Notes: generated by a model not told the origin, from the letters alone. DNA of 24,000 nt from Pyrinomonadaceae bacterium (GCA_041747435.1 JBGTFE010000074.1:21824-45823), one strand, 5' to 3'; shown: positions 8,091 through 24,000, numbered from the stretch's first letter. A program made the numbers and translations.

Positions 8091-10613
8091 TTATTGAGGG
8101 CGCAAAGTCGCGAGCGGTTTTCGAAACAGTACGTCAAAGCTTGCGATCGCGCCAACCAAAGTTACGAGCGCAGCCGTAATTAAGACGCCGAAAACCGTCA
8201 ATCCAAAATCGAATTCCCAATCAATATCAAAAATATATTTCGCGACCGAATAGGAAAGCGCGGTCGCAAACCCGGCGCCGATCATTCCAGCTAAAATGCC
8301 GAGAAGTCCGTATTCGGCGAAAAGTATCGCGCCCAATGTCAGCCGTTTTGCGCCGAGGGTTTTCAGGATCGCGTTTTCATAAATTCGCTGCGATTTGGTC
8401 AGCGCGATCGAGCCGATCAGGATCAAAATTCCGCTCAAAATAACAAAACTTCCGACAAACGAAATAGCAAGAACAAAATTATTTATCAACTTTTGAACGG
8501 CGGCGACGATATCGGCGATGTCAAAGATCTGTATGTTCGGGAATTTATCAATGATGCCGCGCTGCAGCCTTTGCCGATCCGTTTCGGGAATTCTTGTAAG
8601 AACATTCGCCGCGTAAGTTTGCGGCGCTCGTTCGAGCACATCGGGACGAAAAACGAAAATAAAAGCGGTGCGCGTGTTTCGTAAGTCGAGCTTGCGAATA
8701 CTGGCAATTTGCGCGGTTAATTTTCTGCCCGAAATATCAAACGTTATTGAATCGCCGGCAGAAACTTTCAAGCGCGTCGCCATATCTTCTTCGACCGAAA
8801 CCTGCGGAACATCCAGGTTTTCGCTCCACCATTCGCCGGCGATGACGCTCTCGTTCTTATCAAGATTCGCGCGATATGTGACGGCAAATTCGCGCCCGAT
8901 CTGTCCTTGCTGTTGGCGTGTTTCGCGATTTCCAAAGTCAAACGGCTCGCCGTTTATAAACGCGATCCGCGCGCGAACGGTAGGGACGATCTCCGCCGCT
9001 TCGCCGGTTTTTTCTTCGAGAATTTTTCGAACTTCATCAACCTGGCTGCGCTGAATATCGACCATAAAAAGGCTCGGCAGCGTTTGATTGCGCGTGAAAT
9101 CAAACTCGCGAACGAGATTCGCCTGCAGCGACTGAACCGCCAAAACAACGAACGCGCCAAGCCCGACGGCGAGAAGAATTATCCGCGTTTGATTGCCCGG
9201 ACGATACAGCGAATTAACCGCTTGCTTGACGGAAAACGAGCTGAAAGTTTTGATCTTTTTCAGCAGCCACGTCAAAAGAATCGCCGCAAGATACAAGATC
9301 AAAGATGTCGCGCCAAGCCCGACGAGAAAAAACGCGCCGACTTTCAGCGAGCCAGCCTGCCATGCCGAAAGCGCGAGCAATCCGCCGACGGTTACGATAG
9401 TAAAAAGCGACTTTGTCCAATCGAGCCGCCGCATTTTCTCGCCGCCTGCATCGTGCAGCAAAAGGCGTGGTTTTATATTGCGCACCTGCAAAAGCGGCAG
9501 CGCGGAAAACAAAAGCGAGATCAAAACGCCAAGCAAAATGCCTTGCCAAACGGACGAAAACTGCACTGTGTATTGCATCGAAGCCGGAAGCGCATCGGCA
9601 AATCTATATTGCGCAAACCACAAGAAACATTGCGCCAAAAAAACGCCGAAAAAACTTCCCGCCAAGCCGAGCGTCAATATTTGCAAAAGATAAACCGTAA
9701 TGATTCGCGTCCCGCTGGCACCGAGACATTTTAAAACCGCGACCGATTTTCGCTTTTGCTCGACAAAAACTCTTGCCACATTCCAAACGCCGACGCCGCC
9801 GAGAACGAGAATCAGCAAGCCCGTCAAAGAAAGATAATTTTCCGTCCGCTCAAACTGCTCGCTCACGTTTTCCTGCGTTTCGCGATAAGACTGGACGCGC
9901 ACAATTGTGTCCTTTAGATTTTCGCGCAGATCTTTTACTAATTCAGTTGGATTATCCGACGTGCGGTAAAGAATTCTGCGCCGAATCCGGCTCGCATTGC
10001 GCGTTATCTCGGCTTCGTCAAAAGCTTTTTTCTCTATAAAAACTCGCGGACCGAGGCGAAAACCGCCGGTTCCGCCCGGTTCTTCATCAAAAGTCGCACG
10101 AACCTGGAATTCTGCTTCGCCGATACGGATCTTATCGCCGATCTTTATCTTTAGATCTTCCAACAACAACGGCGAAACGACCGCGCCTCGATTTTCAAGC
10201 AGTTTGAAATCGAAAGGCGCGCCGCCGGAAATCGTAAATTCGCCGACAAGCGGAAAAGGCGGCTCGATGCCCTTTAGCTCGGAGAACGAAAGCGTTTGAT
10301 TTGCTTCATCGACCGGACGCGCCATTGCCGCCGTCGTGATCGTTTCGTTTCGCGCTTCAACGATATTTGACCTGTTTATTGCTTCTTCGATCTTTGCGAT
10401 CTCGCTTGGTGAAAAATCGTTGGTCGAGCTTATTTCGATATCCGCCGTCATAAGCGCGCGCGCGTCACCGCCGACAGTTCTGCTCAAATTTTGAATTAGC
10501 GAGCGAAGTGCGACGATCGACCCGACGCCGATCGCAATGCACAGAAAGAAAAACAAGAGCCTGCGCCACGACGAGCGAATTTCACGAAATGTCAGGTTGA
10601 AAATAAAATTCAT
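8091..10613 (-). CDS. ybbP: ABC transporter permease with two FtsX-type domains (YbbP-like)
   Basis: 840 aa. Two blocks of four TM segments are each preceded by a large extracytoplasmic domain (MacB/FtsX layout). It lies directly downstream of the ATPase gene. Confidence 0.8.
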   Translation of the reverse strand: MNFIFNLTFREIRSSWRRLLFFFLCIAIGVGSIVALRSLIQNLSRTVGGDARALMTADIEISSTNDFSPSEIAKIEEAINRSNIVEARNETITTAAMARPVDEANQTLSFSELKGIEPPFPLVGEFTISGGAPFDFKLLENRGAVVSPLLLEDLKIKIGDKIRIGEAEFQVRATFDEEPGGTGGFRLGPRVFIEKKAFDEAEITRNASRIRRRILYRTSDNPTELVKDLRENLKDTIVRVQSYRETQENVSEQFERTENYLSLTGLLILVLGGVGVWNVARVFVEQKRKSVAVLKCLGASGTRIITVYLLQILTLGLAGSFFGVFLAQCFLWFAQYRFADALPASMQYTVQFSSVWQGILLGVLISLLFSALPLLQVRNIKPRLLLHDAGGEKMRRLDWTKSLFTIVTVGGLLALSAWQAGSLKVGAFFLVGLGATSLILYLAAILLTWLLKKIKTFSSFSVKQAVNSLYRPGNQTRIILLAVGLGAFVVLAVQSLQANLVREFDFTRNQTLPSLFMVDIQRSQVDEVRKILEEKTGEAAEIVPTVRARIAFINGEPFDFGNRETRQQQGQIGREFAVTYRANLDKNESVIAGEWWSENLDVPQVSVEEDMATRLKVSAGDSITFDISGRKLTAQIASIRKLDLRNTRTAFIFVFRPDVLERAPQTYAANVLTRIPETDRQRLQRGIIDKFPNIQIFDIADIVAAVQKLINNFVLAISFVGSFVILSGILILIGSIALTKSQRIYENAILKTLGAKRLTLGAILFAEYGLLGILAGMIGAGFATALSYSVAKYIFDIDWEFDFGLTVFGVLITAALVTLVGAIASFDVLFRKPLATLRPQ

Positions 10614-10620
10614 AAAACAT

Positions 10621-10698
10621 TTAGCCGCAAGAATTCACAAAAAATCGCAAAAAATAAAATACATAATTTTTGAGTATTTTGTGCATCTTTGCGGCTAA
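10621..10698. repeat. Imperfect 22-nt inverted repeat spanning the ybbA stop and the ybbP start region
   Basis: ttagccgcaagaattcacaaaa (10621-10642) pairs with ttttgtgcatctttgcggctaa (10677-10698). The outer 10 bp are perfect. The loop holds A-tracts in 10-nt phase (cacaaaaaat cgcaaaaaat). The ybbA stop codon (10695-10697) lies inside the right arm. Confidence 0.75.
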
Positions 10699-11366
10699 TT
10701 TCTTTCATCGGACACGACTTTTCCGTCCTTCAAAATGATCTGCCGCTGCGCTTGTCCGGCGAGTGTCGCGTCGTGCGAAACAAGGATCAAAGTCACGTTA
10801 TTCTGAAGATGGAGTTCGGTCATCAAATCGAAAATATGCTGCCCGTTTTTTGAATCGAGATTGCCGGTTGGTTCGTCGGCGAGCAAAATTTTCGGATGAT
10901 TCGCAAACGCGCGGGCGATGGCGACGCGCTGCTGCTCGCCGCCTGAAAGCTCGGTCGGATAATGATGCCCGCGGTTTGTCAGATCGACGTCGATCATCAA
11001 TTTGTCGGCGCGCGTTTTTACGTCTTCAAGCCCGAGAATTTCCATCGGGATCAAAACATTTTCATACGCGGTGAGCGAAGGAATCAGATGAAACGACTGA
11101 AAAACAAAACCAATCTTTTCGCTGCGGATCGCGGCGAGCGCGTCTTCGCTCATTTTGGTAATATCTTCGCCGTCGATCGAAATTGTGCCCGAAGTCGGCG
11201 CGTCCAAGCCGGCGATCAAACCGAGCAGCGTAGATTTTCCGCTGCCCGAAGCGCCCGTTACCGCGACAAATTCCCCGTCGGGAATTTCCAGTGAAACGTC
11301 GTCGAGGATCGTCAAATCTTCCGCGCCGGAGCGCACTGTTTTGGTTACGTTTTGAAGAACAATCAT
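10695..11366 (-). CDS. ybbA: ABC transporter ATP-binding protein (YbbA/LolD-like)
   Basis: 223 aa. Walker A GASGSGKST, signature LSGGEQQRVAIARA, Walker B ILLADEPTGNLD. Confidence 0.9.
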   Translation of the reverse strand: MIVLQNVTKTVRSGAEDLTILDDVSLEIPDGEFVAVTGASGSGKSTLLGLIAGLDAPTSGTISIDGEDITKMSEDALAAIRSEKIGFVFQSFHLIPSLTAYENVLIPMEILGLEDVKTRADKLMIDVDLTNRGHHYPTELSGGEQQRVAIARAFANHPKILLADEPTGNLDSKNGQHIFDLMTELHLQNNVTLILVSHDATLAGQAQRQIILKDGKVVSDERN

Positions 11367-11370
11367 ATTT

Positions 11371-11405
11371 CGTTAATAGTAAATCGTGAATCTCGAATCG
11401 TAAAA
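11371..11405. repeat. Five tandem heptamers, CGTNAAT on the + strand (ATTNACG on the ybbA sense strand)
   Basis: cgttaat agtaaat cgtgaat ctcgaat cgtaaaa, starting 4 nt from the ybbA start. The array contains TTTACG-17-TACTAT-9-ATG on the minus strand (rc of 11399-11404 and 11376-11381). Confidence 0.85.
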
Positions 11406-11434
11406 TAGTCTGCGCTATACTTGAAAAGTTTTCT

Positions 11435-11469
11435 ATTCACGATTTACGATTCACGATTGACGAATAAAC
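11435..11469. repeat. Five tandem heptamers ATTNACG, an inverted partner of 11371-11405
   Basis: attcacg atttacg attcacg attgacg aataaac. The arrays are separated by a 29-nt spacer. The array includes TTGACG at 11457-11462. Confidence 0.85.
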
Positions 11470-11512
11470 TGCATCTTATTAACGCATCTTTGCGTAAGAA
11501 AGTTTGCCTGAT

Positions 11513-12187
11513 ATGAAAAAGCTTTTTTTCCTGAGCCTGGTTTTTGTTTTCACCGCCTGCGGCGCTTCTACAGTTGAACAGCGCACCGATCAAAATTTAA
11601 ACAAACCGCTGATCACCCCAAAGATAAAGACTGATAAACCGAAGATCGTTGCTTTTGGCGACAGTCTTACCGCTGGTTTCGGTTTGGCGGAAAAAGAATC
11701 TTACCCGTATCTTTTGCAGCAAAAATTAACATCGGACGGATTTGATTATGAAGTTTTGAATGCCGGCGTTTCAGGCGAAACATCGCTCGGCGGATTGGAA
11801 CGCGTCGATTGGGTTTTGGAAATGGAAAACGTCGAGATCTTGATTTTGGAGCTCGGCGCAAACGATCTTCTACGGGGTTTGCCGGTCGCAAAAATGAAGG
11901 AAAATCTCGCCCGGATAATAGAAAAAGCAAAAGCGAAAAAGGTAAAAGTTTTGCTTTGCGGAATGCTCGCGCCGCCATCGGTCGGAGCGCAATACGAGCG
12001 CGAATACACAAACGCCTTTCCCGATCTCGCCAGCGAACACAAAGTCGCTTTTTTGGCTTTTCTGCTCGAAAACGTCGCGCTCAACAAAGACCTCAACCAA
12101 GCCGACGGCATTCATCCGAACGCAAAAGGCGCCGTCGTAATGACCGAAAATATTTACAAAGCTCTGCAGCCGATGCTGAAGAAATAA
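11513..12187 (+). CDS. tesA: SGNH/GDSL arylesterase / thioesterase I / lysophospholipase L1-like, exported
   Basis: MKKLFFLSLVFVFTACG is a signal peptide with a possible lipobox. Block I is FGDSLTAG, block III is GANDLL, block V is DGIHPN. The gene is divergent from ybbA-ybbP, as in E. coli. The track start at TTG 11504 is less likely than ATG 11513. Confidence 0.85.
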   Translation: MKKLFFLSLVFVFTACGASTVEQRTDQNLNKPLITPKIKTDKPKIVAFGDSLTAGFGLAEKESYPYLLQQKLTSDGFDYEVLNAGVSGETSLGGLERVDWVLEMENVEILILELGANDLLRGLPVAKMKENLARIIEKAKAKKVKVLLCGMLAPPSVGAQYEREYTNAFPDLASEHKVAFLAFLLENVALNKDLNQADGIHPNAKGAVVMTENIYKALQPMLKK

Positions 12188-12636: not shown

Positions 12637-13308
12637 ATGGATGAAGAAAAAAAATTGCTTATTTCAGTTGGATTAATTCTTTTCGGTTGGTTTCTGGGGC
12701 AAGGTACGGAACTTTTCCGAAAATGGTCAATGAATCGCCGGCTGAAAGTCGCGTTATATGAAGAACTTCAAGATTTAGCCAGTATTCTCAATGCATTGCG
12801 AATCTACTTCCTTCACCGTCTTGAAGGGCATTCGGTCGGTTTCTTAGAGACCAGCGAACCTTTACCACTCAATAATCAAATTTATACGAACAAATACACT
12901 GATATTAGCTTAAAATTAAATCGCAACCAGAGATTATCTTATGAAACAATTCATGGTTTCATCAATGCCTTTAATAAACGCTTGGATCCAATAGCGCACT
13001 TAACAATACGTGCGATTGAAACTCACGACTCAGAAATTTTTGACAAGCTGGGTGATATGCTCAAAGCTCAATACTTAAATATCGAGATGTTACGTTCGCG
13101 AATTGGCTATCATTTGAGAAATCCTAGGAGACCGGCATTTGGAACTAATGACGAAGGAGTCTCGGAAATTCTAAAAGCCCAAAAAATCTGCATTGAGCAA
13201 ATTGAATCCCTAATAGAAAAATGGCAATCGGGTACGTTGGAAGACTATTTAGCCCAAAAAGAATTTCGGTATCAAATTCTTACGATGCCTTCCTCCGAAG
13301 ATAAATGA
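12637..13308 (+). CDS. Hypothetical protein with one N-terminal TM helix and a helical body; AT-rich
   Basis: 223 aa. LLISVGLILFGWFLGQG is a TM segment. Spot GC is 17/60 at 12901-12960. I recognise no motif. Confidence 0.55.
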   Translation: MDEEKKLLISVGLILFGWFLGQGTELFRKWSMNRRLKVALYEELQDLASILNALRIYFLHRLEGHSVGFLETSEPLPLNNQIYTNKYTDISLKLNRNQRLSYETIHGFINAFNKRLDPIAHLTIRAIETHDSEIFDKLGDMLKAQYLNIEMLRSRIGYHLRNPRRPAFGTNDEGVSEILKAQKICIEQIESLIEKWQSGTLEDYLAQKEFRYQILTMPSSEDK

Positions 13309-13406
13309 ATTGTCAACTGACGTAAATCTTGGACAAAATCCCCAATTTTTGTTAGGCTTTACCTTGCTTTTTCGGCATCCAATACAAAATTTTTATTTAA
13401 TAAGAG

Positions 13407-13412
13407 TATAAT
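13407..13412 (+). promoter_or_regulatory. Consensus -10 hexamer TATAAT, 8 nt upstream of ATG 13421 (possible leaderless start)
   Basis: TATAAT is seen directly. There is no Shine-Dalgarno sequence between it and the ATG, and the upstream region is AT-rich. Confidence 0.35.
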
Positions 13413-13420
13413 AAAACAAT

Positions 13421-15376
13421 ATGTTTAGTGATAATTTCAGACGCGGCGAAGGGAAAGGTAAGGGAAAAACCGGCTCGAAAGCCGCTTCGAAACTTGCCGA
13501 TTTGGGTTGGAAAGCCTTTCAAGCCGTTAATAAATCTTTGCCCGAAGGCGAATCAATTACGCCGAATTGGGCGGCGGAACCGCTTTTGAAATCGTATGAG
13601 CGCACCGCGCCGCCGCTCGGTTTTCCGCGTGAGACGGATTCGCTTTGCCCGACGTGCGTGAAGAATGTGCGGAACGGTGTGATTGACAAATCTATTCCGC
13701 TCGAAATTTTGATGAATTCGCATCCGGGCGAGATCAAGGCGCAGATCGTCGAAGAAAACGGACAAGTTTTGATGAAGAAAACTTGCGCGACGCACGGCGA
13801 ATTTGTGGACGTTTTGGCGACCGATCCGGCATTTTTGGAACGCATCGAGAGTTTATTTTACGGGCGCGATTTTAAAGCGGCGGAAGACACGCACGTTCAT
13901 CATCACGGAACTTCGGACATCAAATTCGGACGCGGCGCGGTTTTGACGGTTGATTTGACAAACCGCTGCAATATGATGTGCAACCCGTGTTTTATGGACG
14001 CGAATCAGGTCGGCTATGTCCACGAACCGACGTTTGAAGACACGAAACAAATTCTTGACAACGCCGTTTCATTCAAACCGCGCCGACAGATCATCATTCT
14101 TTTTTCGGGCGGCGAACCGACGATTGCGCCGCACTTTTTGGAGTCGGTCGCGTATGCGAAAAAGGTCGGCTTTTACAGAATTTTAGCGGCGACGAATGGC
14201 ATTCGCTACGCCGAAGACATCGAGTTTTGCAAAGCCGCTAAAGAAGCCGGACAACACGGCGTTTATTTGCAATTCGACGGAACGAGCGAAGAAAAAAACA
14301 AACATCGTGGCGTGGGAAATCTCTTTGACGTGAAACTCAAAGCGATTGAAAATCTCGCGTCGGTCGGCATCAAAGTTACGCTTGTAACGACGATTGTTAA
14401 TACGATCAATAACGATGCCATCGGCGACATCGTCAGATTTGCGGCGGAAAATATTGATAAAGTTCAGACGATTGCTTTTCAGCCGGTTTCATTTACCGGA
14501 CGCGATGAAGATATTTCCGACAAAGACCGCATCGAGCAACGCTACACGCTGGCGGGAATGACGCACGATTTGAAAGATCAACTCGACGGCAACCTCGCGC
14601 TCGAACCACTTCGTGATTGGTTTCCGCTTTCTTCATATTCGGCGTTCACTTCCGTGATGGATATGCTGCAAGGCGCGGACGCGCCGTGGGGCTGGTCGTC
14701 GTGCAACTGTCATCCGAATTGCGGAATTTTTACGCTCGTCGTCGTTAATAAAAAGACGAACGAAATGCGTTCGCTGTTTGAGTTTTTCAATTATGAACAA
14801 TTTATGCAGGACGTGGCGACGATCACCGACACGGCTCGCGGCAAGAAATTGACGATGGCTCAACTCGGAATGGCGATTATGCGAAATTACAACGCATCGA
14901 ACGCGCCGGAAGGTTTTCCGATCTCGCAAATTTTGAATCTTTTCAAACCGTCGTCCGCCGATTCAAATTCAGACCGCAATGACCGGATGAAAACGCGCGA
15001 AGAAGAAGACGTTTGGCGCGTTCTCTGTGTCGAGGGAATGTGGTTTCAGGATTTGTTCACATACGATTTTCGCCGCACGGAAATGTGTGTTATCCCTTAT
15101 GGAACACAGGACGGCGAAATTTCATTCTGCGCTTACAACACCGGAGTCGGCTGGCGGCAAATCGTCGAAGAAATGAACAAAACCGCGTCTTTGAGTGAAT
15201 GGTATAAAGAAAACGGTCGCCACGCCGTCTATGCGAAAGGCAAGGAAGTTCCGAATATCGAAAAAACGCGCAGTTTGAGTCTTCCGATAATTGCAAAAGT
15301 CTTGCAGGAAGATTTGGACAAACCGACCGCAACGCCTTATCTTGTTGAAGAAGAATCCGAAACGGTCTCAATATAG
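13421..15376 (+). CDS. Radical SAM protein, COG1964/MJ0619-like (tetraether lipid synthase Tes / GDGT-MAS family homologue)
   Basis: 651 aa. Radical SAM motif C183-x3-C187-x2-C190 (CNMMCNPC). Upstream knuckle: SLC76PTC79 ... IKAQIVEENGQVLMKKTC122ATH125GEF. Later Cys clusters: SSCNCHPNCG and MCVIPYG...ISFCAYN. The radical SAM call is firm; the family assignment is from memory of the MJ0619-type layout. Confidence 0.75.
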   Translation: MFSDNFRRGEGKGKGKTGSKAASKLADLGWKAFQAVNKSLPEGESITPNWAAEPLLKSYERTAPPLGFPRETDSLCPTCVKNVRNGVIDKSIPLEILMNSHPGEIKAQIVEENGQVLMKKTCATHGEFVDVLATDPAFLERIESLFYGRDFKAAEDTHVHHHGTSDIKFGRGAVLTVDLTNRCNMMCNPCFMDANQVGYVHEPTFEDTKQILDNAVSFKPRRQIIILFSGGEPTIAPHFLESVAYAKKVGFYRILAATNGIRYAEDIEFCKAAKEAGQHGVYLQFDGTSEEKNKHRGVGNLFDVKLKAIENLASVGIKVTLVTTIVNTINNDAIGDIVRFAAENIDKVQTIAFQPVSFTGRDEDISDKDRIEQRYTLAGMTHDLKDQLDGNLALEPLRDWFPLSSYSAFTSVMDMLQGADAPWGWSSCNCHPNCGIFTLVVVNKKTNEMRSLFEFFNYEQFMQDVATITDTARGKKLTMAQLGMAIMRNYNASNAPEGFPISQILNLFKPSSADSNSDRNDRMKTREEEDVWRVLCVEGMWFQDLFTYDFRRTEMCVIPYGTQDGEISFCAYNTGVGWRQIVEEMNKTASLSEWYKENGRHAVYAKGKEVPNIEKTRSLSLPIIAKVLQEDLDKPTATPYLVEEESETVSI

Positions 15377-15378
15377 AA

Positions 15379-16290
15379 ATGAAAGTCGCCAAAACGTTAA
15401 AAAATCTTGGCGGGCTTGCCAAGCTGATGGTGTTTGGCATGCCGGACAATGCCGTCGGTTCGATTGACGTTACAAAACGCTGTAATCTGCGCTGTGAACA
15501 TTGTTATTTTTTCGCCGAAGAACACAAAGAGCGCGAACTGACGATCGAAGAATGGACGGAAAAATTCGAGGCGATGAAGGCGGCGGGCGATCCGATGTTG
15601 CTTTGCACATGGGTTGGCGGCGAACCGATGGTTCGCAAACCTTTGATCGACATTGGGCGGAAATATTTCAAACACAATACGGTTGTTACGAACGGCACGA
15701 TGGAATTGCCTGATTGGACGGATGTAACCTGGGTGATCTCGATTGACGGCACGGAAGAAGCGTTTGAAAAAATGCGTGCGCCGGGAATTTATAACAAAAT
15801 CAAGGACAATATAAAACGTCATCCAACTTTACGAATCCAGATTTCGTGTGTCATTACGAGTCTGACAAAAGACTGCATCGAAGATTTGGTCGAGGAATGG
15901 AAAGACCTCGCAAGCGGCGGAATTATTTTCGATTTCTTTACGCCGGTTAATAAATTGGACGAATCTCTGTGGCTCGATTGGGACGAGCGCGACGCGATGA
16001 TTGATAGAATCTTTGAACTCAAAAAGAAATATCCGGGCAAAATAAATATGCTCGATTCGACGCTCGATCTGATGCGTTCAAACAATTCAAAGAAAGTTAC
16101 GGATAATTGCTTATTTAAAGAAAAAGCTTTCACGCTCGGCGCGGACGGCAAAGACAAAGGCAAATGTATGATGGGCAACAACGCCGATTGCGACAAATGC
16201 GGTTGCGTCGTGCCGTTTTATATGGCGACGATGAATTCGCCAAAACTTCTCGTAAAAGAAGCCTTGAAAAAAGCCGTCGGCAGAAACTGA
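15379..16290 (+). CDS. Second, smaller radical SAM protein with a C-terminal Cys-rich (SPASM/twitch-like) motif
   Basis: 303 aa. C35-x3-C39-x2-C42 (CNLRCEHC), GGEP motif, and C-terminal CMMGNNADCDKCGC. It starts 2 nt after the stop of the upstream gene. Confidence 0.8.
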   Translation: MKVAKTLKNLGGLAKLMVFGMPDNAVGSIDVTKRCNLRCEHCYFFAEEHKERELTIEEWTEKFEAMKAAGDPMLLCTWVGGEPMVRKPLIDIGRKYFKHNTVVTNGTMELPDWTDVTWVISIDGTEEAFEKMRAPGIYNKIKDNIKRHPTLRIQISCVITSLTKDCIEDLVEEWKDLASGGIIFDFFTPVNKLDESLWLDWDERDAMIDRIFELKKKYPGKINMLDSTLDLMRSNNSKKVTDNCLFKEKAFTLGADGKDKGKCMMGNNADCDKCGCVVPFYMATMNSPKLLVKEALKKAVGRN

Positions 16291-16292
16291 TC

Positions 16293-17978
16293 TTAATCCA
16301 GATTCTCTAACAAGATTTCCAAACCTCTTTTCACGTCCGCGCCGAGATGCACACGCAAAGCGCGGCGTTTTCTATCCAATAAAACCTGAAAATCTCCGCG
16401 AGCCTGAGCAGATTTCACTACCCCGAATGTAAATTTTTGTTCGGGAACGGCGAAATCTTCCGCGTCGTCCGATGTGATTTGCAAAAACACGCCATTGTTT
16501 GCGCCGCCTTTGTAGGCTTGTCCGGTTGAATGAAGAAATCTTGGACCAAAACCGAGGCAGGTCGCGCAATTGTATTTCTTTAAGATCTTTTTCCGTATGG
16601 CTTGCAATAGTTCTTCGTTTTCCCGGTTCATTTCCACATATGCGAGCAGCGCAAAATAATCATTTTTCTTGACGCGTTCTAAATGCGTGGCGAGATAACC
16701 GGCGAGCGTTTTTTCGCGAACTCGCGCGCTGATGTCGGCGACATTGTCACCATCGGAAAAAAACTTGATTTCGTCTTCGAAAAATGCGTTTTCCGCGGGC
16801 AGCGAACCTTTTTCTTCGTATTCTTCGGTCAATTTTTTGGCTTCGATCTTTGCCGCTTCAACATCGGGCTGATTAAACGGATTGATTTTCATAATCGCGC
16901 CCGCGATAGCCGTCGCAAACTCCCAACGGAAAAATTCCTGTCCGAGATCCATCTTGTCTTCTAAAACGATTTTCACAAGCGGCAAACCCGAATTTTCCAA
17001 CAAAGCGATCCTTTCATCAAGAGAATTCTCGCGCGAATCTTTCAATTGTAAATAAGCAAAAACACGGTCGTCGCCATAATCTTCAAAGTCGAGCAGCGGT
17101 TCACGGTCAACGGGAATTATCGAAACGCCTTGTTTTCCGGTGCTCTCGGCAATAAGTTGTTCCATCCACGCGCCGACATCGTAAATCTCTGGCGATGTAA
17201 AAATCGTTAATTTATCGCGTTTGTTTTGATGGCAAACGCCTAGGATAATTCCGAGGATCGCACCCGTGTTTTCTCTTGGATCTTCAATTCTGCAATTTTC
17301 GACCATTTCCGAAGCGCGCTTCAAAAAATCTTCAACATCGATCTGCATAGCCGCCGCCGCTGTCATTCCGAAAGGCGAAAGCGCGGAAAATCTGCCGCCG
17401 ATCTCGGGATCGCCGAAAAGGATTTTCCGAAAATTGTCGTTTTCGGCGATCTGCTGCATTTTCGAGTCAGGATCGGTGATCGCGACAAACTGCTTTCCGG
17501 CGTTTTTGGCGCCGACAAATCCCGACACACGCTCGAAAAAATATTGTTTGAAACAATTCGGCTCGAGTGTCGAACCTGATTTGCTGGCGACAATAAAAAG
17601 CGTGTCGGCGAGATCCAATTTGCTTTCGAGCGTTTTGATCTGCGCCGGAACGGTCGAATCGAGGACGTGAAAATTCTTTTTGCCGAAGGTTATCGAAAAA
17701 ACTTCGGGACAAAGCGAACTGCCGCCCATTCCGAGCAAAACTATGTCTTTGAAATTTTTTGCGTCCGCCGCAAAATCGCGATATTTCTGCAAATCGTTCA
17801 AGTCCGCTTCAACGACGCCGAGCCAGCCGAGCCATTTCGCCTCGTCGTCACCGGTCCAAACGCTCGCGTCTTTTTGCCATATGCGCGCGATCTTATTTTC
17901 ATTTTGCCATTTATCCATTTCGGCGCGAACGGCTTTTCCCAAATCGTCCGGCAGCGAAAAAGTTAAAGAATTAAGCAT
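16293..17978 (-). CDS. pgi: Glucose-6-phosphate isomerase (the type found alone or fused to transaldolase)
   Basis: 561 aa. IWQKDASVWTGDDEAKWLGWLGV, LLGMGGSSLCPEV and ASKSGSTLEP are PGI/SIS-domain signatures. Confidence 0.82.
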   Translation of the reverse strand: MLNSLTFSLPDDLGKAVRAEMDKWQNENKIARIWQKDASVWTGDDEAKWLGWLGVVEADLNDLQKYRDFAADAKNFKDIVLLGMGGSSLCPEVFSITFGKKNFHVLDSTVPAQIKTLESKLDLADTLFIVASKSGSTLEPNCFKQYFFERVSGFVGAKNAGKQFVAITDPDSKMQQIAENDNFRKILFGDPEIGGRFSALSPFGMTAAAAMQIDVEDFLKRASEMVENCRIEDPRENTGAILGIILGVCHQNKRDKLTIFTSPEIYDVGAWMEQLIAESTGKQGVSIIPVDREPLLDFEDYGDDRVFAYLQLKDSRENSLDERIALLENSGLPLVKIVLEDKMDLGQEFFRWEFATAIAGAIMKINPFNQPDVEAAKIEAKKLTEEYEEKGSLPAENAFFEDEIKFFSDGDNVADISARVREKTLAGYLATHLERVKKNDYFALLAYVEMNRENEELLQAIRKKILKKYNCATCLGFGPRFLHSTGQAYKGGANNGVFLQITSDDAEDFAVPEQKFTFGVVKSAQARGDFQVLLDRKRRALRVHLGADVKRGLEILLENLD

Positions 17979-18135: not shown

Positions 18136-19167
18136 ATGGAAACGGAAATTTTTTGGAAAGCAATTCAAAAGAGCGATGCGAGATTTAATGGCGCATTTGT
18201 TTACGGCGTAAATTCGACGCACATTTACTGCAAACCGTCGTGCGCATCGAAACTGCCGAAACGCGAGAATGTCGAATTTTTCGAAGACTTTAATAAAGCT
18301 GAACGAAAAGGCTTTCGCGCGTGTCTGCGATGCTGCCCGAAGTCTGAAAAAGCTGATCCGCAAATCGAAAGCGTGTTGCGCGCCGTGGATATTCTTGCGT
18401 CCGGCGAGCAAATTTCGCTCGAAAATTTGAGCGCGGAATTAAATTTGAGCGCGGCGCATTTGCAGAAGGTTTTCAAGGAAATTATCGGCGTTTCGCCAAA
18501 GAAATTTGCGGAAATAAAACGTCTGGAACAATTTAAAAATGAGGTCAGAAAGGGAAGCGATGTAACCAGCGCGATGTATGATGCAGGTTTTGGTTCGTCG
18601 AGTCGCTTGTATGAAAACGTTTCCGCAAAACTCGGCATGACGCCGAAAACTTACGCCAAAAAAGGCGAAAATATGAGAATTGATTACACGATAACCGAAT
18701 GTAGTTTAGGAAAATTGCTGGTTGCGCGCACCGAAAAAGGCGTTTGCGCCGTCGCATTCGGAGACGATGAGCCGACATTGGCGGAAAATTTCTTTAATGA
18801 ATATAAAAACGCGGAGATCTCGGCAAACAGAAAAAATCTGAAAGATTTTGTTCGCGCGGTTATCGCAAACCTTGAGGGAAAAAACAAATCGCTGGATTTG
18901 CCACTCGATCTGCAGGGAAGCGCTTTTCAGATGCGCGTCTGGGACGCCTTGCGCAAAATTCCATATGGCGAAACGGTATCTTACTCGGACATCGCGGAAA
19001 AGATCGGCAATAATAACGCGGTTCGCGCCGTCGCGACGGCTTGCGCATCAAATCGCACGGCGCTAGTCGTTCCCTGTCATCGCGTCGTCGGAAAAAACGG
19101 AAATTTAAGTGGTTATCGCTGGGGAATCGAACGGAAACAGAAGCTTCTCGAAAAAGAAAGACGATAG
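18136..19167 (+). CDS. ada: Bifunctional Ada: methylphosphotriester-DNA methyltransferase / AraC-type regulator / O6-methylguanine-DNA methyltransferase
   Basis: 343 aa. The N-terminal Zn domain reads FVYGVNSTHIYCKPSC...GFRACLRCCP, followed by an AraC helix-turn-helix. The C-terminal MGMT domain has the VPCHRVV active site. Confidence 0.9.
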   Translation: METEIFWKAIQKSDARFNGAFVYGVNSTHIYCKPSCASKLPKRENVEFFEDFNKAERKGFRACLRCCPKSEKADPQIESVLRAVDILASGEQISLENLSAELNLSAAHLQKVFKEIIGVSPKKFAEIKRLEQFKNEVRKGSDVTSAMYDAGFGSSSRLYENVSAKLGMTPKTYAKKGENMRIDYTITECSLGKLLVARTEKGVCAVAFGDDEPTLAENFFNEYKNAEISANRKNLKDFVRAVIANLEGKNKSLDLPLDLQGSAFQMRVWDALRKIPYGETVSYSDIAEKIGNNNAVRAVATACASNRTALVVPCHRVVGKNGNLSGYRWGIERKQKLLEKERR

Positions 19168-22494: not shown

Positions 22495-23493
22495 ATGGAT
22501 GCTCAAATAATTCAAAATCTACGTTATAAACTCCAAAAAAGAATTCGTCGACTCAATTCAGCGAATACGGAAGTCTTCGCACCCGTCCTACAACAGTTCT
22601 GGGCTTTTTTTGATAACCAACAAACGCTGGACGGCATTATCAGAAGTGTCGTTTCCGCCTATCCCAGAGCTTCTGAAATTGTTGATAATATTTTTGAAGG
22701 AACGGTGTCTTGGGGCGCGACGGAAGAAGAAGCAGCAGTCATCGGATATGAAATTTTGAGACGGATTAAAGATGAGGAGTCGATGCGTAACACCTTACAC
22801 GCAGTGAGTAATGCTCAGATAACTTATGATTCTAACTACGAGGAAATTCTAAATACATTTAGAGACGTTTTTCTTGAGCCTTTTTATGAATATATTGACG
22901 AGCAACTTGACGACCAAAGAGCAATTTTGAGTTTACTATATCGGTACAAGCATCGAATCGAATGGTTTAATCGGGAACGACTTTCGCAACTTTATCAAAA
23001 TAATACAACTAAAGGCGAAAAATTATTAGCTTTGGATTTATATTCTTATTTACATGACCAAGGATTTAATTTTTCGATTGAGCCATCTTCCATTGATGGT
23101 TCAATTGATTTAATTTCAATTCAAGATTCAGATGACCCGTTACTAGCAGATGCGAAAATTTTCGATGGCGATAGTAGAGGAAAAACTTATCTTTGTAAAG
23201 GTTTTAATCAAATCTACACCTATACTCAACAATATAATGAGCCTTTTGGATATTTAGTAATTTTCAAAGTAACTGACAGAGATTTAAGATTTTCTCTTGC
23301 AACTGATTCTAGAAATGTTCCTGTTGTGACTTACAATCACAAAACAATTTTCTTGATAACCATTGATATTTATCCCCATCCAAAACCCGTTTCACAACGC
23401 AATCCGATAAATGCTATTGAAATCAAAGAGGAAGATTTAGTTCGTTCTGTCGAAGGTGGAAATCCTGAATCAATTACCGAGCCAATCAAATAG
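22495..23493 (+). CDS. Hypothetical protein: N-terminal helical domain plus C-terminal PD-(D/E)xK nuclease-like core
   Basis: 332 aa, starting 3 nt after the zinc-ribbon gene stop. Core elements: GE175KLLALDLYSYL (helix), FNFSIEP (strand), GSID205LISI, LLAD219AK221IF, NQIYTYTQQY (helix), FGYLVIFKV (strand). Spot GC is 18/60 at 22501-22560. Confidence 0.6.
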   Translation: MDAQIIQNLRYKLQKRIRRLNSANTEVFAPVLQQFWAFFDNQQTLDGIIRSVVSAYPRASEIVDNIFEGTVSWGATEEEAAVIGYEILRRIKDEESMRNTLHAVSNAQITYDSNYEEILNTFRDVFLEPFYEYIDEQLDDQRAILSLLYRYKHRIEWFNRERLSQLYQNNTTKGEKLLALDLYSYLHDQGFNFSIEPSSIDGSIDLISIQDSDDPLLADAKIFDGDSRGKTYLCKGFNQIYTYTQQYNEPFGYLVIFKVTDRDLRFSLATDSRNVPVVTYNHKTIFLITIDIYPHPKPVSQRNPINAIEIKEEDLVRSVEGGNPESITEPIK

Positions 23494-24000
23494 CATCTTT
23501 TCCTGCCGGAAAAGCGCGTGCTCCGGTTTCTCGTTTCTTGTCATCGGAAGCTTGAAGAATACGGAAAGCTGTTCCTGGATTCCTTTTTCGCCGCGGCGTT
23601 TTGCTAAATCTAAGAGTCGCGCGATCTCGATCGCGAGCGGCGCGGCGAGGATCGAATCTTTGCAAAGAAAATTAACCTTTATCTGCATCGATTGTCCCAA
23701 AAAACCGACGACGTCGATGTTGTCCCACGCTTCTTTGTTGTCGCCGCGCGGACGATAATAGCGAATGTCGACGAGATGATCTTCGACTTCGTAACCTAGA
23801 ATATCTTCGAGAACCGAGCTTTTCGTTTTGACCTTTGAAGCGAGCGAATCTTCGTTTGAAAGCGCGAGCCCGTCGCGGTTTCCTAAAATATTGGTTGAAT
23901 ACCAACCTTCGACCTTTAATGCGCGTGTTTTGAACGCGGGCGCGAGAACGCTTTTGATCATTGTCTGTCCGGTTTTGCCGTCTTTTCCGGCGATCGGAAC
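23470..24000 (-). CDS. ino1: Inositol-3-phosphate (myo-inositol-1-phosphate) synthase, C-terminal part; the ORF continues past the right edge
   Basis: The sequence ...VPIAGKDGKTGQTMIKSVLAPAFKTRALKVEGWYSTNILGNRDG...SKVKTKSSVLEDILGY...YYRPRGDNKEAWDNID..GFLG..MQIKVNFLCKDSILAAPL matches the MIPS C-terminal pattern. The frame is open from 23961 to 24000. Confidence 0.85.
   Translation of the reverse strand, partial: VPIAGKDGKTGQTMIKSVLAPAFKTRALKVEGWYSTNILGNRDGLALSNEDSLASKVKTKSSVLEDILGYEVEDHLVDIRYYRPRGDNKEAWDNIDVVGFLGQSMQIKVNFLCKDSILAAPLAIEIARLLDLAKRRGEKGIQEQLSVFFKLPMTRNEKPEHALFRQEKMLFDWLGN

What the first reader, a model, noticed from the sequence alone, without database searches (positions are those of the whole stretch)
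13407..16290. Tes/GDGT-MAS-like radical-SAM enzyme coupled to a second small radical-SAM protein: candidate bacterial membrane-spanning-lipid module
Seen in the sequence:
- ORF 13421-15376 has a CPxC...C-x2-H knuckle followed by IKAQIVEENGQVLMKKTCATHGEF.
- It then has CNMMCNPC (C-x3-C-x2-C) and further Cys clusters (SSCNCHPNCG; MCVIPYG..FCAYN).
- A second radical-SAM ORF (CNLRCEHC; C-terminal C-x8-C-x2-C-x-C) starts 2 nt after its stop.

Established knowledge: this N-terminal layout is what I recognise from the COG1964/MJ0619 family. Archaeal members of that family are the tetraether lipid synthase (Tes, also called GDGT-MAS), which joins two lipid tails by a C(sp3)-C(sp3) bond. Bacterial homologues have been proposed as the source of branched GDGTs and iso-diabolic acid. 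To my knowledge the bacterial chemistry and any partner proteins are not biochemically settled.

Inference: this pair could be a bacterial tail-to-tail lipid-coupling system, and the dedicated second radical-SAM partner is not part of the archaeal paradigm. A RiPP-maturase explanation seems less likely, because no short precursor ORF lies next to the genes.
Basis: partly seen in the sequence, partly recalled or inferred. Interest (0 to 1): 0.75.

Follow-up and report, generated by a model that had tools for sequence, protein, structure and literature searches.

The report
Acidobacterial Tes-like enzyme plus optional radical-SAM partner
A soil acidobacterium (Pyrinomonadaceae) carries a clear relative of the archaeal enzyme that welds two lipid tails into a membrane-spanning lipid, followed by a small, uncharacterised radical-SAM gene that only about one in ten related species keep, so the second gene is probably an optional lipid-tailoring enzyme rather than a required partner.

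Summary
ORF A (13421-15376, 651 aa) and ORF B (15379-16290, 303 aa) exist, carry the quoted motifs and lie 2 nt apart.

**ORF A** is a true homologue of tetraether synthase Tes/GDGT-MAS:
- PDB 7TOL gives E 5e-69.
- The NCBIfam Tes model scores 319 bits, below its 450-bit equivalog cut-off.
- The Pfam HMPTM zinc ribbon is present.

A keeps the rubredoxin-like site, the radical-SAM cluster and the C-terminal cluster with its Met and Tyr. It lacks the three cysteines of the N-terminal [4Fe-4S] cluster, and an invariant His-rich stretch sits there instead. The host is a Pyrinomonadaceae bacterium (Acidobacteria subdivision 4). Per the literature, this class has iso-C15:0 as its main fatty acid and contains iso-diabolic acid.

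**ORF B** is a Twitch-like radical-SAM protein of an uncharacterised family. It is not the published Gms.
- Only 7 of 71 related A loci have a B-type gene.
- Where B occurs in this family, it usually lies just downstream of A and co-diverges with it (r 0.95).
- Distant B homologues sit in envelope-lipid gene clusters.

Best reading: A couples lipid tails (inferred, untested), and B is a dispensable tailoring enzyme of unknown chemistry. Both the Tes-homologue hypothesis and tes clustered with a second radical-SAM gene in Acidobacteria are already published. This is a new variant of a known kind, of moderate interest.

The parts
13421..15376 (+). ORF A, 651 aa: Tes/GDGT-MAS-family radical-SAM enzyme of a bacterial subfamily that lacks the N-terminal auxiliary cluster
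   Evidence: NCBIfam NF045702 Tes 319 bits (cut-off 450), full-length match. PDB 7TOL E 5e-69. Pfam Radical_SAM plus PF23545. Foldseek top hit 7TOM, E 9e-24, from a low-confidence model.
13646..13795 (+). Rubredoxin-like metal site: C76-x2-C79 ... C122-x2-H125, with a roughly 22-residue insertion relative to M. jannaschii Tes (C9x2C12x20C33x2H36)
   Evidence: PF23545 Zn_ribbon_HMPTM, 52 bits against a cut-off of 27. Alignment with representatives. Ligand pattern taken from PMC9433317.
13886..13909 (+). Invariant His-rich stretch D156-T-H158-V-H160-H161-H162-G163, at the position of the missing [4Fe-4S]N ligands (H158 and H162 align with MjTes C73 and C77)
   Evidence: MAFFT alignment. Invariant or nearly invariant in 23 close homologues. 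Any metal binding is inference.
13967..13990 (+). Radical-SAM cluster motif C183-x3-C187-x2-C190
14696..15139 (+). Elements of the C-terminal auxiliary [4Fe-4S] cluster: C434 (in SSCNCHPNCG), M540 (= MjTes Met439), C556, Y560 (= Tyr459) and C570
   Evidence: Residue-by-residue alignment to 7TOL and column conservation across 25 representatives. Roles of Met439 and Tyr459 from PMC9433317.
15379..16290 (+). ORF B, 303 aa: Twitch-like radical-SAM protein of an uncharacterised, envelope-lipid-associated family; an accessory gene
   Evidence: Pfam Radical_SAM only, and all NCBIfam hits far below their cut-offs. AF2 model pLDDT 85; Foldseek best hits SkfB, anSME, SuiB, BlsE, MoaA. Genomic contexts.
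15481..15504 (+). B radical-SAM motif C35-x3-C39-x2-C42
   Evidence: Invariant in 22 homologues.
16108..16206 (+). B putative auxiliary-cluster cysteines: C244 and C263-x7-C271-x2-C274-x-C276
   Evidence: Invariant columns in alignment A1. Twitch/SPASM-type fold matches. Cluster binding is inferred.
13309..13420 (+). AT-rich spacer upstream of A containing one weak promoter-like match (13310-13339)
   Evidence: Consensus scan only, so this is weak. No terminator-like site on the + strand lies between A and B, which fits co-transcription.

Best explanation
ORF A is a Blastocatellia-type member of the Tes/GDGT-MAS radical-SAM family.

**Proposed mechanism for A (inferred)**
1. A binds two phospholipids.
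2. It uses 5'-deoxyadenosyl radicals from its CX3CX2C cluster to abstract hydrogen from the terminal methyl carbons of iso-C15 chains.
3. It parks the first substrate radical on the C-terminal [4Fe-4S] cluster (C434, C556, C570, labile M540).
4. It then forms a C(sp3)-C(sp3) bond. This gives the iso-diabolic-acid-type membrane-spanning lipids that this class of Acidobacteria is known to make.

Unlike the archaeal enzyme, A works without the N-terminal auxiliary [4Fe-4S] cluster.

**Proposed role for B**
ORF B is co-transcribed and probably translationally coupled here. It is not a subunit or a required partner. It is an optional Twitch-type radical-SAM tailoring enzyme that acts on the same envelope lipids, either on the coupled chains or on their head groups. 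It was paired with A early in Pyrinomonadaceae and has since been lost from most lineages.

**Shown:** family membership, ligand conservation and loss, gene order, distribution and co-divergence.
**Inferred:** the substrates and both chemistries.
For: **A belongs to the Tes family**
- Best profile hit is Tes, full length.
- GDGT-MAS 7TOL gives E 5e-69, while the next solved structure scores 2e-7.
- 7TOM is the Foldseek top hit by 17 orders of magnitude.

**A's catalytic elements**
- The rubredoxin-like site, radical-SAM motif, C-cluster cysteines, Met439 equivalent and Tyr459 equivalent are all conserved.

**Host and its lipids**
- The host is Pyrinomonadaceae/Blastocatellia.
- In that class iso-C15:0 is the main fatty acid and iso-diabolic acid is present (PMC12816986).
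- Searching for Tes homologues led to the brGDGT producer Solibacter usitatus. Its authors named subdivision 4 and 6 Tes-bearing acidobacteria as the next targets.

**B is linked to A but dispensable**
- B lies on the same strand downstream of A in 12 distinct loci, with gaps from 2 nt to about 1 kb.
- A and B identities co-vary across 55 locus pairs (Pearson 0.95, Spearman 0.90).
- A second B subtype (44% identical) sits 41 nt after A in L014.
- Only 7 of 71 A loci have a B-type gene, and no B remnants remain in the A-PGI spacers.
- B-positive loci are scattered over the A tree.
- The families differ greatly in size: at least 8000 hits for A against 476 for B.

**B is associated with envelope lipids**
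- Homologues about 49% identical lie in clusters with PagL, an LpxL/PIM-acyltransferase-like gene, ACP, FabD-like, B12 radical-SAM and Gms-like genes.
- Others lie beside OmpA-like, TolC-like and MlaC/HpnM-like genes. One of these loci also has HpnN/BstA-like RND, flippase-like, PIP-synthase-like and inositol-dehydrogenase-like genes.
Against: - No bacterial Tes homologue has been shown to make membrane-spanning lipids (PMC11868695).
- The Thermoanaerobacter ethanolicus Tes homologue gave none when expressed in E. coli.
- Tes homologues were found in only 3 of 14 acidobacteria that make iso-diabolic acid, so that lipid does not generally require this family.
- A scores below the NCBIfam Tes equivalog cut-off and lacks the N-terminal cluster. 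Its relative in Terriglobus roseus lacks the C-cluster cysteines as well. The subfamily may therefore have drifted to other chemistry.
- Nothing else in this window is lipid-specific.
- For B, no characterised relative was found.
- Gene neighbourhoods point to both tail and head-group chemistry.
- One B clade (L096, L098) is not next to A.
Confidence: 0.5

Rival explanations
1. A and B form an obligate two-component lipid-coupling system. On this view B supplies a function A needs, for example replacing the lost N-terminal cluster or carrying out the second C-C bond.
For: - The genes are 2 nt apart in the window.
- B follows A in 12 loci and co-diverges with it.
- A lacks the [4Fe-4S]N ligands.
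Against: - 64 of 71 A loci have no B-type gene nearby.
- All 22 close A homologues examined lack the N-cluster cysteines, although most A loci of this group have no B.
- L045 (no B) and L058 (with B) have A proteins 97.8% identical.
- The B family is at least 15 times smaller than the A family.
- B has its own complete radical-SAM motif and is found without any Tes gene in other phyla.
Confidence: 0.04
2. B is a functional analogue of archaeal Gms. It would cross-link the two alkyl chains of the membrane-spanning lipid made by A, giving H-shaped (brGMGT-like) lipids.
For: - Gms is a SPASM/Twitch-class radical-SAM enzyme, and bacterial gms genes cluster with tes or mss in Acidobacteria and Planctomycetes (PMC11214058).
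- B belongs to the same broad class, has an auxiliary-cluster motif and follows a tes-like gene.
- Its patchy distribution would suit an optional modification.
Against: - B fails the published Gms criteria. It is 303 aa rather than at least 400, has no N-terminal COG4001-type extension (its radical-SAM motif starts at residue 35), scores only 37.5 bits on the AhbD model, and has no SPASM Pfam match even at E <= 1.
- B shares only 26% identity, over the radical-SAM core alone, with the Gms-like protein of L081.
- In L081/L082 a Gms-like gene and a B-like gene coexist, which argues for different roles.
Confidence: 0.12
3. B modifies a polar head group (a cyclitol or sugar) of envelope lipids rather than the hydrocarbon chains. 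Its position next to A would then reflect only shared membership in envelope-lipid metabolism.
For: - In L097 the B-like gene directly follows genes resembling PIP synthase and inositol dehydrogenase.
- In L081/L082 it precedes genes for a polysaccharide deacetylase and a GT2 polyprenyl-phospho-sugar synthase-like enzyme.
- Fold matches include the sugar- and cyclitol-modifying enzymes BlsE, DesII and SpeY.
- A myo-inositol-1-phosphate synthase gene lies at the end of the window.
Against: - Fold matches to peptide and cofactor enzymes are equally good or better.
- L106 keeps the B-like, TolC-like and MlaC-like genes without the head-group genes.
- In Pyrinomonadaceae the only recurrent neighbour of B is the Tes-like gene.
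Confidence: 0.17
4. A is a Tes-family enzyme with a different, non-coupling or non-lipid function, and B is an unrelated radical-SAM gene that happens to sit in a variable spot next to it.
For: - A scores below the equivalog cut-off and has lost the N-cluster.
- Subfamily members also lose the C-cluster cysteines (P0244, P0248, P0268).
- Tes homologues are absent from most iso-diabolic-acid-producing acidobacteria, and the T. ethanolicus homologue was inactive.
- The A-B spacer holds mobile-type genes in some relatives: Uma2 and an antitoxin-family gene.
Against: - A itself keeps every residue tied to coupling chemistry in the archaeal enzyme that could be checked.
- The A-B link recurs with co-divergence, and a second B subtype occupies the same position.
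- B relatives elsewhere lie in lipid clusters.
Confidence: 0.25
5. The pair is a RiPP or other peptide-maturase system.
For: - B's nearest solved structures include the peptide maturases SkfB, SuiB, CteB and EpeE.
- Weak NCBIfam hits to ranthipeptide and sactipeptide maturases.
Against: - All those hits are far below family cut-offs (about 40-50 bits against 300-650).
- There is no room for a precursor gene. A and B are 2 nt apart, and B's stop lies 2 nt from the stop of the convergent PGI-like gene.
- No peptidase or exporter lies beside the pair.
- No conserved small ORF lies beside the pair in related loci.
- A's best hit is Tes.
Confidence: 0.02

Closest known systems
Tetraether synthase Tes / GDGT-MAS (M. 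jannaschii MJ0619, PDB 7TOL/7TOM; NCBIfam NF045702; InterPro IPR034474)
   Same: - Full-length homology (about 30% identity).
- Rubredoxin-like CX2C...CX2H site.
- CX3CX2C radical-SAM cluster.
- C-terminal cluster cysteines, with the labile Met and the conserved Tyr.
   Different: - Bacterial rather than archaeal.
- Scores 319 bits, below the 450-bit equivalog cut-off.
- About 65 extra N-terminal residues.
- About 22-residue insertion in the rubredoxin-like domain.
- The [4Fe-4S]N ligands C73, C77 and C80 are absent, replaced by an invariant His-rich stretch.
- The presumed substrate is an iso-branched acyl or alkyl chain rather than phytanyl.
- Activity is untested.
Bacterial Tes homologues proposed for brGDGT synthesis (Koribacter versatilis, Solibacter usitatus, Edaphobacter aggregans; Zeng 2022 PMC8941075, Chen 2022 preprint)
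   Same: An acidobacterial Tes-family gene proposed to couple iso-C15 chains. The hypothesis is the same as the one made for A.
   Different: - Those proteins are 40-42% identical to M. acetivorans Tes.
- A belongs to a more divergent branch. Its six intact full-length representatives (37-48% identical to A) all lack the CPxxCGxCxxH motif, which 15 of 17 MjTes-like representatives keep.
- Whether the Koribacter and Solibacter proteins themselves keep the motif was not checked here.
gms-tes / gms-mss gene clusters in Acidobacteria, Planctomycetes and candidate phyla (Garcia 2024, PMC11214058); Gms (GMGT synthase)
   Same: A SPASM/Twitch-class radical-SAM gene clustered with a membrane-spanning-lipid synthase gene in Acidobacteria, and proposed to tailor the product.
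   Different: - B is not a Gms: it is 303 aa and has no COG4001-type N-domain, no full SPASM domain, and only generic similarity to AhbD.
- A Gms-like gene and a B-like gene coexist in L081/L082.
Mss, the bacterial membrane-spanning lipid synthase (Thermotoga maritima, Thermoanaerobacter ethanolicus; PMC13159169)
   Same: A radical-SAM enzyme that couples two fatty-acid tails. This is the only experimentally confirmed bacterial route to diabolic and iso-diabolic acids.
   Different: - Per that paper, Mss is a different family from Tes, and no mss homologues were found in the acidobacterial genomes examined.
- Neither A nor B could be compared with Mss sequences here.
Twitch/SPASM radical-SAM enzymes with solved structures (SkfB 6EFN, anSME 4K39, BlsE 7VOB, MoaA 1TV7)
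   Same: B shares the partial TIM barrel and a C-terminal Cys-rich auxiliary-cluster region (Foldseek E down to 5e-13, TM 0.66).
   Different: - Sequence identity is 14-23%.
- B's cysteine pattern (C-x7-C-x2-C-x-C plus C244) and its lipid-cluster contexts match none of them.

Membership tests
Tes / GDGT-MAS family (broad: IPR034474, COG1964) | Full-length sequence homology to the solved GDGT-MAS | tested here: met
   7TOL E 5e-69, query 105-596 against chain 36-513. Tes HMM covers positions 2-482 of 486. Foldseek top hit 7TOM E 9e-24, TM 0.55 normalised to the target, from a low-confidence model.
Tes (NCBIfam NF045702 equivalog) | Score at or above the curated cut-off of 450 bits | tested here: not met
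   319.2 bits.
Tes / GDGT-MAS | Rubredoxin-like mononuclear site, CX2C...CX2H | tested here: met
   C76, C79, C122, H125. PF23545 scores 52 bits against a cut-off of 27. The spacer is 42 residues rather than 20.
Tes / GDGT-MAS | N-terminal auxiliary [4Fe-4S] cluster (MjTes C73, C77, C80 plus His) | tested here: not met
   No Cys between residues 122 and 183. The aligned residues are H158, H162, S165 and K168. The motif is also absent in all 22 close homologues.
Tes / GDGT-MAS | Radical-SAM CX3CX2C cluster | tested here: met
   C183, C187, C190.
Tes / GDGT-MAS | C-terminal [4Fe-4S] cluster with labile Met439, and conserved Tyr459 | tested here: met
   C434, C556, C570, M540 and Y560 align with the conserved columns. 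The exact Cys ligand assignment is inferred, because the source text names only Met439.
Tes / GDGT-MAS | Catalyses tail-to-tail C(sp3)-C(sp3) coupling of membrane lipids | not testable with these tools
   Needs expression and lipid analysis. No bacterial homologue is confirmed in the literature read.
Tes / GDGT-MAS | Host produces membrane-spanning lipids | not tested
   The window comes from an uncultured relative. Class-level literature reports iso-diabolic acid in Blastocatellia.
Gms (GMGT synthase), tested for ORF B | At least 400 aa, with a roughly 100-aa N-terminal COG4001 lipid-binding domain | tested here: not met
   B is 303 aa and its radical-SAM motif begins at residue 35. Criteria from PMC11214058.
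Gms (GMGT synthase), tested for ORF B | AhbD-like core with a full SPASM domain (two auxiliary clusters) | tested here: not met
   AhbD model 37.5 bits against a cut-off of 500. No PF13186 hit at E <= 1. One Cys cluster only.
Gms (GMGT synthase), tested for ORF B | Gene clustered with tes or mss | tested here: met
   Downstream of the tes-like gene in 12 loci.
Twitch/SPASM class of radical-SAM enzymes, tested for ORF B | Radical-SAM core plus a C-terminal Cys-rich auxiliary-cluster extension | tested here: met
   Invariant C244, C263, C271, C274 and C276. Best folds are SkfB, anSME, SuiB and BlsE. Cluster binding itself was not tested.
Mss (bacterial membrane-spanning lipid synthase) | Sequence homology to Tmari_0825 / T. 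ethanolicus Mss | not testable with these tools
RiPP radical-SAM maturase system | Adjacent precursor peptide gene, usually with a peptidase or exporter | tested here: not met
   No space or ORF for a precursor between or after the genes. No conserved small ORF in related loci.

The most novel reading that the evidence does not exclude
The B family is a previously unrecognised class of small Twitch-type radical-SAM enzymes that tailor bacterial envelope or membrane-spanning lipids. In Pyrinomonadaceae it would modify the product of the Tes-like enzyme, for example by a bridge, ring, desaturation or other C-H functionalisation. Its presence or absence between near-identical species would then create strain-level differences in the branched tetraether or iso-diabolic-acid lipids that are used as palaeoclimate proxies. 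In parallel, the A subfamily would show that Tes chemistry runs without the N-terminal [4Fe-4S] cluster.
Probability: 0.2. Interest if true: 0.75.

Novelty: new variant of a known kind. Interest (0 to 1): 0.45.

Why it matters
Branched GDGTs and iso-diabolic-acid lipids from soil bacteria underpin widely used temperature and pH proxies. Yet the acidobacterial enzymes that make and modify them are still unproven. Subdivision 4 acidobacteria from neutral to alkaline soils have been named explicitly as the place to look.

This locus gives a concrete, testable gene pair from that group.
- **The synthase candidate.** It is a natural variant lacking one of the three clusters of the archaeal enzyme, which makes it useful for working out what that cluster does.
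- **The optional second gene.** Its on/off pattern between sister species offers a natural experiment for linking a gene to a lipid modification.

If A proves inactive, that would strengthen the published suspicion that acidobacteria use a different, still unknown route.

Tried and rejected
- **afdb50 fold search for B:** the library was not installed, so no annotated AlphaFold neighbours could be seen.
- **Metagenome scan with B:** it returned only 9 loci. The homologues about 33% identical had uninformative neighbours such as CTP synthase, NAD kinase and KaiC-like genes.
- **Structure prediction of A:** only homologues at least 86% identical were allowed in the alignment, so the model was poor (pLDDT 46.7). 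It could not be used to inspect cluster geometry. Only the identity of the top fold hit was taken from it.
- **Supplementary table S21 of PMC13159169:** this table lists which acidobacteria have Tes homologues, but it is not held.
- **Conserved operon partner of A:** clustering the neighbours of A across 80 loci found none. LpxA/LpxD/LpxB/LptD adjacency occurs in one clade only, and threonine-synthase-like, FtsX-like and PGI-like genes occur in others.
- **B as compensation for A's lost N-cluster:** rejected, because A proteins without B also lack that cluster.
- **B as a Gms:** rejected on length, domain and profile scores.
- **B as a cobalamin-dependent methylase:** rejected, because B has no B12-binding domain.
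- **B as calditol-synthase-like:** the top NCBIfam hit is the archaeal PTO1314 family at 52 bits against a cut-off of 306, which is too weak to use.
- **B pseudogene remnants:** none were found in the A-PGI spacers of B-negative relatives.

Full report
**1. Observation**

The two ORFs are real and positioned as described. ORF A is 13421-15376 (+), 651 aa. ORF B is 15379-16290 (+), 303 aa. A ends with TAG at 15374-15376 and B starts with ATG at 15379, 2 nt later. B's stop lies 2 nt from the stop of a convergent PGI-like gene at 16293-17978.

Every quoted motif is present. There are two corrections:
- B's C-terminal motif is C263-x7-C271-x2-C274-x-C276, not x8.
- A has no cysteine between C122 and C183. 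This matters for the cluster count discussed below.

**2. What ORF A is**

- Pfam finds Radical_SAM (1e-21) and the HMPTM/MJ0619 N-terminal zinc ribbon PF23545 (52 bits, cut-off 27).
- The best NCBIfam model is 'tetraether lipid synthase Tes' (NF045702). It scores 319 bits over model positions 2-482 of 486, but falls below the 450-bit equivalog cut-off. The next hit is TrsS at 211 bits. Heme, PQQ and peptide-maturase models score below 100 bits.
- Among solved structures, GDGT-MAS (7TOL/7TOM) matches at E 5e-69, against 2e-7 for the next hit, SkfB.
- An AlphaFold model of A was poor (pLDDT 46.7), because only near-identical homologues could be supplied. Even so, its best fold match is 7TOM (E 9e-24, TM 0.55 on the target), with MoaA next at 1e-6.

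Family membership in the broad sense is therefore secure. Orthology to archaeal Tes is not.

**3. Cofactor sites in A**

The GDGT-MAS paper (PMC9433317) and a 2026 review define four metal sites:
- a rubredoxin-like Fe (C9x2C12x20C33x2H36);
- [4Fe-4S]N (C73, C77, C80 plus His);
- the radical-SAM cluster;
- [4Fe-4S]C (three Cys plus labile Met439), with Tyr459 conserved in archaea.

I compared A with these sites using the HMMER alignment to 7TOL (chain numbering = native + 20) and a MAFFT alignment with 25 representatives from the 50%-identity library.

| Site in MjTes | Equivalent in ORF A | Status |
|---|---|---|
| Rubredoxin-like Fe | C76, C79, C122, H125, with a ~22-residue insertion | kept |
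| Radical-SAM cluster | C183, C187, C190 | kept |
| [4Fe-4S]C, Met439, Tyr459 | C434, C556, C570, M540, Y560 | kept |
| [4Fe-4S]N (C73, C77, C80, His) | H158, H162, S165, K168 at the aligned positions | absent |

The stretch D156-x-H158-x-H160-H161-H162-G163 is invariant or nearly so in 23 close homologues.

The six intact full-length representatives closest to A (37-48% identity) all lack the CPxxCGxCxxH motif. In contrast, 15 of 17 MjTes-like representatives of about 500 aa (30-38% identity) have it.

One subfamily member is from Terriglobus roseus (WP_014786616). It has also lost the three C-cluster cysteines. So A belongs to a distinct bacterial branch of the family with a reduced and variable cluster complement. 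A itself retains everything tied to the proposed coupling chemistry.

**4. Host and lipid background**

The 80 best genome loci encoding A homologues (78-95% identity) are all Pyrinomonadaceae, Pyrinomonadales, Blastocatellia or 'Chloracidobacterium' MAGs. The closest relative found, L103, has 94% nucleotide identity across A.

From the literature:
- Blastocatellia have iso-C15:0 as their main fatty acid and contain iso-diabolic acid (PMC12816986).
- Zeng et al. proposed bacterial Tes homologues as brGDGT synthases.
- Chen et al. found the brGDGT producer Solibacter usitatus by searching for Tes homologues. They suggested looking next at Tes-bearing subdivision 4 and 6 acidobacteria.

Against the hypothesis:
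- Only 3 of 14 acidobacteria that produce iso-diabolic acid had Tes homologues.
- The T. ethanolicus homologue made no membrane-spanning lipid in E. coli.
- As of 2025, activity of bacterial homologues was still unconfirmed.

**5. What ORF B is**

- B matches only PF04055 in Pfam. All NCBIfam hits are generic, at most 52 bits against cut-offs of 300-650.
- An AlphaFold model (pLDDT 85) matches Twitch/SPASM-type enzymes best: SkfB (E 5e-13, TM 0.66), anSME, SuiB, BlsE and MoaA.
- In 22 homologues the invariant cysteines are C35/C39/C42, C76, C244, C263, C271, C274 and C276. This fits one auxiliary cluster.
- B is not the published GMGT synthase Gms. Gms is at least 400 aa, AhbD-like (36% identity to AhbD), and has a roughly 100-aa N-terminal COG4001 domain and a full SPASM domain. 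B is 303 aa, has its radical-SAM motif at residue 35, scores 37.5 bits on AhbD and has no SPASM hit.

**6. Linkage of A and B**

Starting from A:
- Of 71 species-level loci with at least 1.2 kb downstream of A, 7 have a B-type gene there.
- In 34 loci the PGI-like gene lies downstream of A with no B between them. In about half of these the spacer is under 450 nt (down to 36 nt). No spacer under 1.6 kb contains a B remnant.
- B-positive loci are scattered over the A tree. For example, L058 (with B) and L045 (without B) have A proteins 97.8% identical.
- The family sizes agree with this pattern: at least 8000 hits for A against 476 for B.

Starting from B:
- Within Pyrinomonadaceae, B lies downstream of A on the same strand in the window and in L018, L042, L053, L058, L070, L079/L094, L083, L093, L101 and L103.
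- Spacers run from 2 nt to about 1 kb. Some contain mobile-type small genes such as Uma2 or an antitoxin-family gene.
- One clade with a 320-aa B (L096, L098) is not near A.
- Pairwise identities of A and B co-vary (Pearson 0.95 over 55 pairs). B is the faster-evolving of the two, with mean identity 77% against 84% for A.
- A different B subtype (44% identical to B, 49% to the outgroup clade) sits 41 nt after A in L014.

The simplest reading is an old A-B pairing with frequent clean loss of B. B is therefore an accessory gene, not an obligate partner.

**7. B relatives elsewhere**

B homologues about 49% identical occur without any Tes gene, in envelope-lipid settings:
- **Desulfuromonadaceae-type clusters (L081, L082).** These carry PagL, an LpxL/PIM-acyltransferase-like gene and ACP. 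L081 also shows a FabD-like gene, a 4HBT thioesterase and up to five B12-binding radical-SAM genes; L082 ends earlier and shows three. Both have a deacetylase and a GT2 gene. Both also have a 459-aa AhbD-like SPASM protein whose N-terminal extension makes it look Gms-like.
- **Loci with OmpA-like, B-like, TolC-like and MlaC/HpnM-like genes in that order (L097, L106).** L097 additionally has HpnN/BstA-like RND, flippase-like, PIP-synthase-like and inositol-dehydrogenase-like genes.
- **One locus (L104) is uninformative**.

These contexts support a lipid-related role. They do not separate chain chemistry from head-group chemistry.

**8. Verdict**

- The 'dedicated partner' idea is not supported from A to B, and only partly supported from B to A.
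- The concept of a tes-like gene clustered with a second SPASM/Twitch radical-SAM gene in Acidobacteria is already published for Gms (PMC11214058).
- New here: A's branch lacks the N-terminal cluster, and B is a different, uncharacterised family with an on/off distribution among close relatives.
- I rate the coupling function of A at roughly 0.55, a lipid-tailoring role of B at roughly 0.55, and the combined explanation at 0.5.
- Novelty: new variant of a known kind. Interest: 0.45.

Noticed in passing
window 8091-12187: A GDSL esterase gene (11504-12187, +) lies divergent from an ABC ATPase (10695-11366, -) and an 840-aa FtsX-type permease (8091-10613, -). From memory, this matches the E. coli tesA-ybbA-ybbP arrangement. 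The thioesterase TesA is unrelated to tetraether synthase Tes despite the similar name.
   Followed up: partly
window 12637-13308 (+): A 223-aa ORF directly upstream of A has no Pfam or NCBIfam hit. It has no counterpart next to A in any of the 80 related loci, so it looks strain-specific.
   Followed up: partly
L083, L094/L095, L101/L102 and the ~80%-identity clade L061-L080: In one Pyrinomonadaceae clade the Tes-like gene is divergently adjacent to the lipid A genes lpxA-lpxD, with lpxB and lptD nearby. This is not so in the window. It could be plain synteny or a hint of an outer-membrane lipid link.
   Followed up: partly
L081 5719-16969 and L082 5036-15620: A Desulfuromonadaceae-type lipid cluster contains PagL, three to five B12-binding radical-SAM genes, a B-like gene, an XrtA-type deacetylase, GT2, a Gms-like AhbD/SPASM protein with an N-terminal extension, an LpxL/PIM-acyltransferase-like gene and ACP; the longer locus L081 also shows a FabD-like gene and a thioesterase. 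I know of no description of its product.
   Followed up: partly
L097 2597-11056 and L106 1575-6796: A B-like radical-SAM gene recurs between an OmpA-like gene and TolC-like plus MlaC/HpnM-like genes. In L097 it is joined by HpnN/BstA-like RND, flippase-like, PIP-synthase-like and inositol-dehydrogenase-like genes. This looks like an envelope-lipid synthesis and export module.
   Followed up: partly
P0244 (Terriglobus roseus WP_014786616), alignment: This subdivision 1 acidobacterial relative of A (44% identity) lacks both the N-cluster and all three C-cluster cysteines, while keeping the radical-SAM motif. If it is functional, it cannot use the cluster-assisted coupling mechanism proposed for Tes.
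   Followed up: no
L093 5034-7662; L103 1766-3458; L098 7211-7700: Small mobile-type or toxin-antitoxin genes (Uma2, Unstab_antitox, BrnT) sit between or beside A and B in relatives. The A-B-PGI interval therefore behaves as a variable spot.
   Followed up: no
window 23470-23961 (-): The C-terminal part of a myo-inositol-1-phosphate synthase gene lies at the window edge. This points to inositol-containing lipids or solutes in this organism, which is relevant to the head-group hypothesis for B.
   Followed up: no
window 18136-19167 (+): A 343-aa ORF looks by eye like an Ada-type fusion: an AraC-type HTH plus an O6-methylguanine methyltransferase domain with a PCHRV motif. It was not run against any library.
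   Followed up: no
window 8668-10299 (+ strand, inside the permease gene): Several long ORFs (up to 275 aa) lie antisense to the 840-aa permease gene. They have Arg/Lys-rich, low-complexity translations and are most likely spurious shadow ORFs.
   Followed up: no
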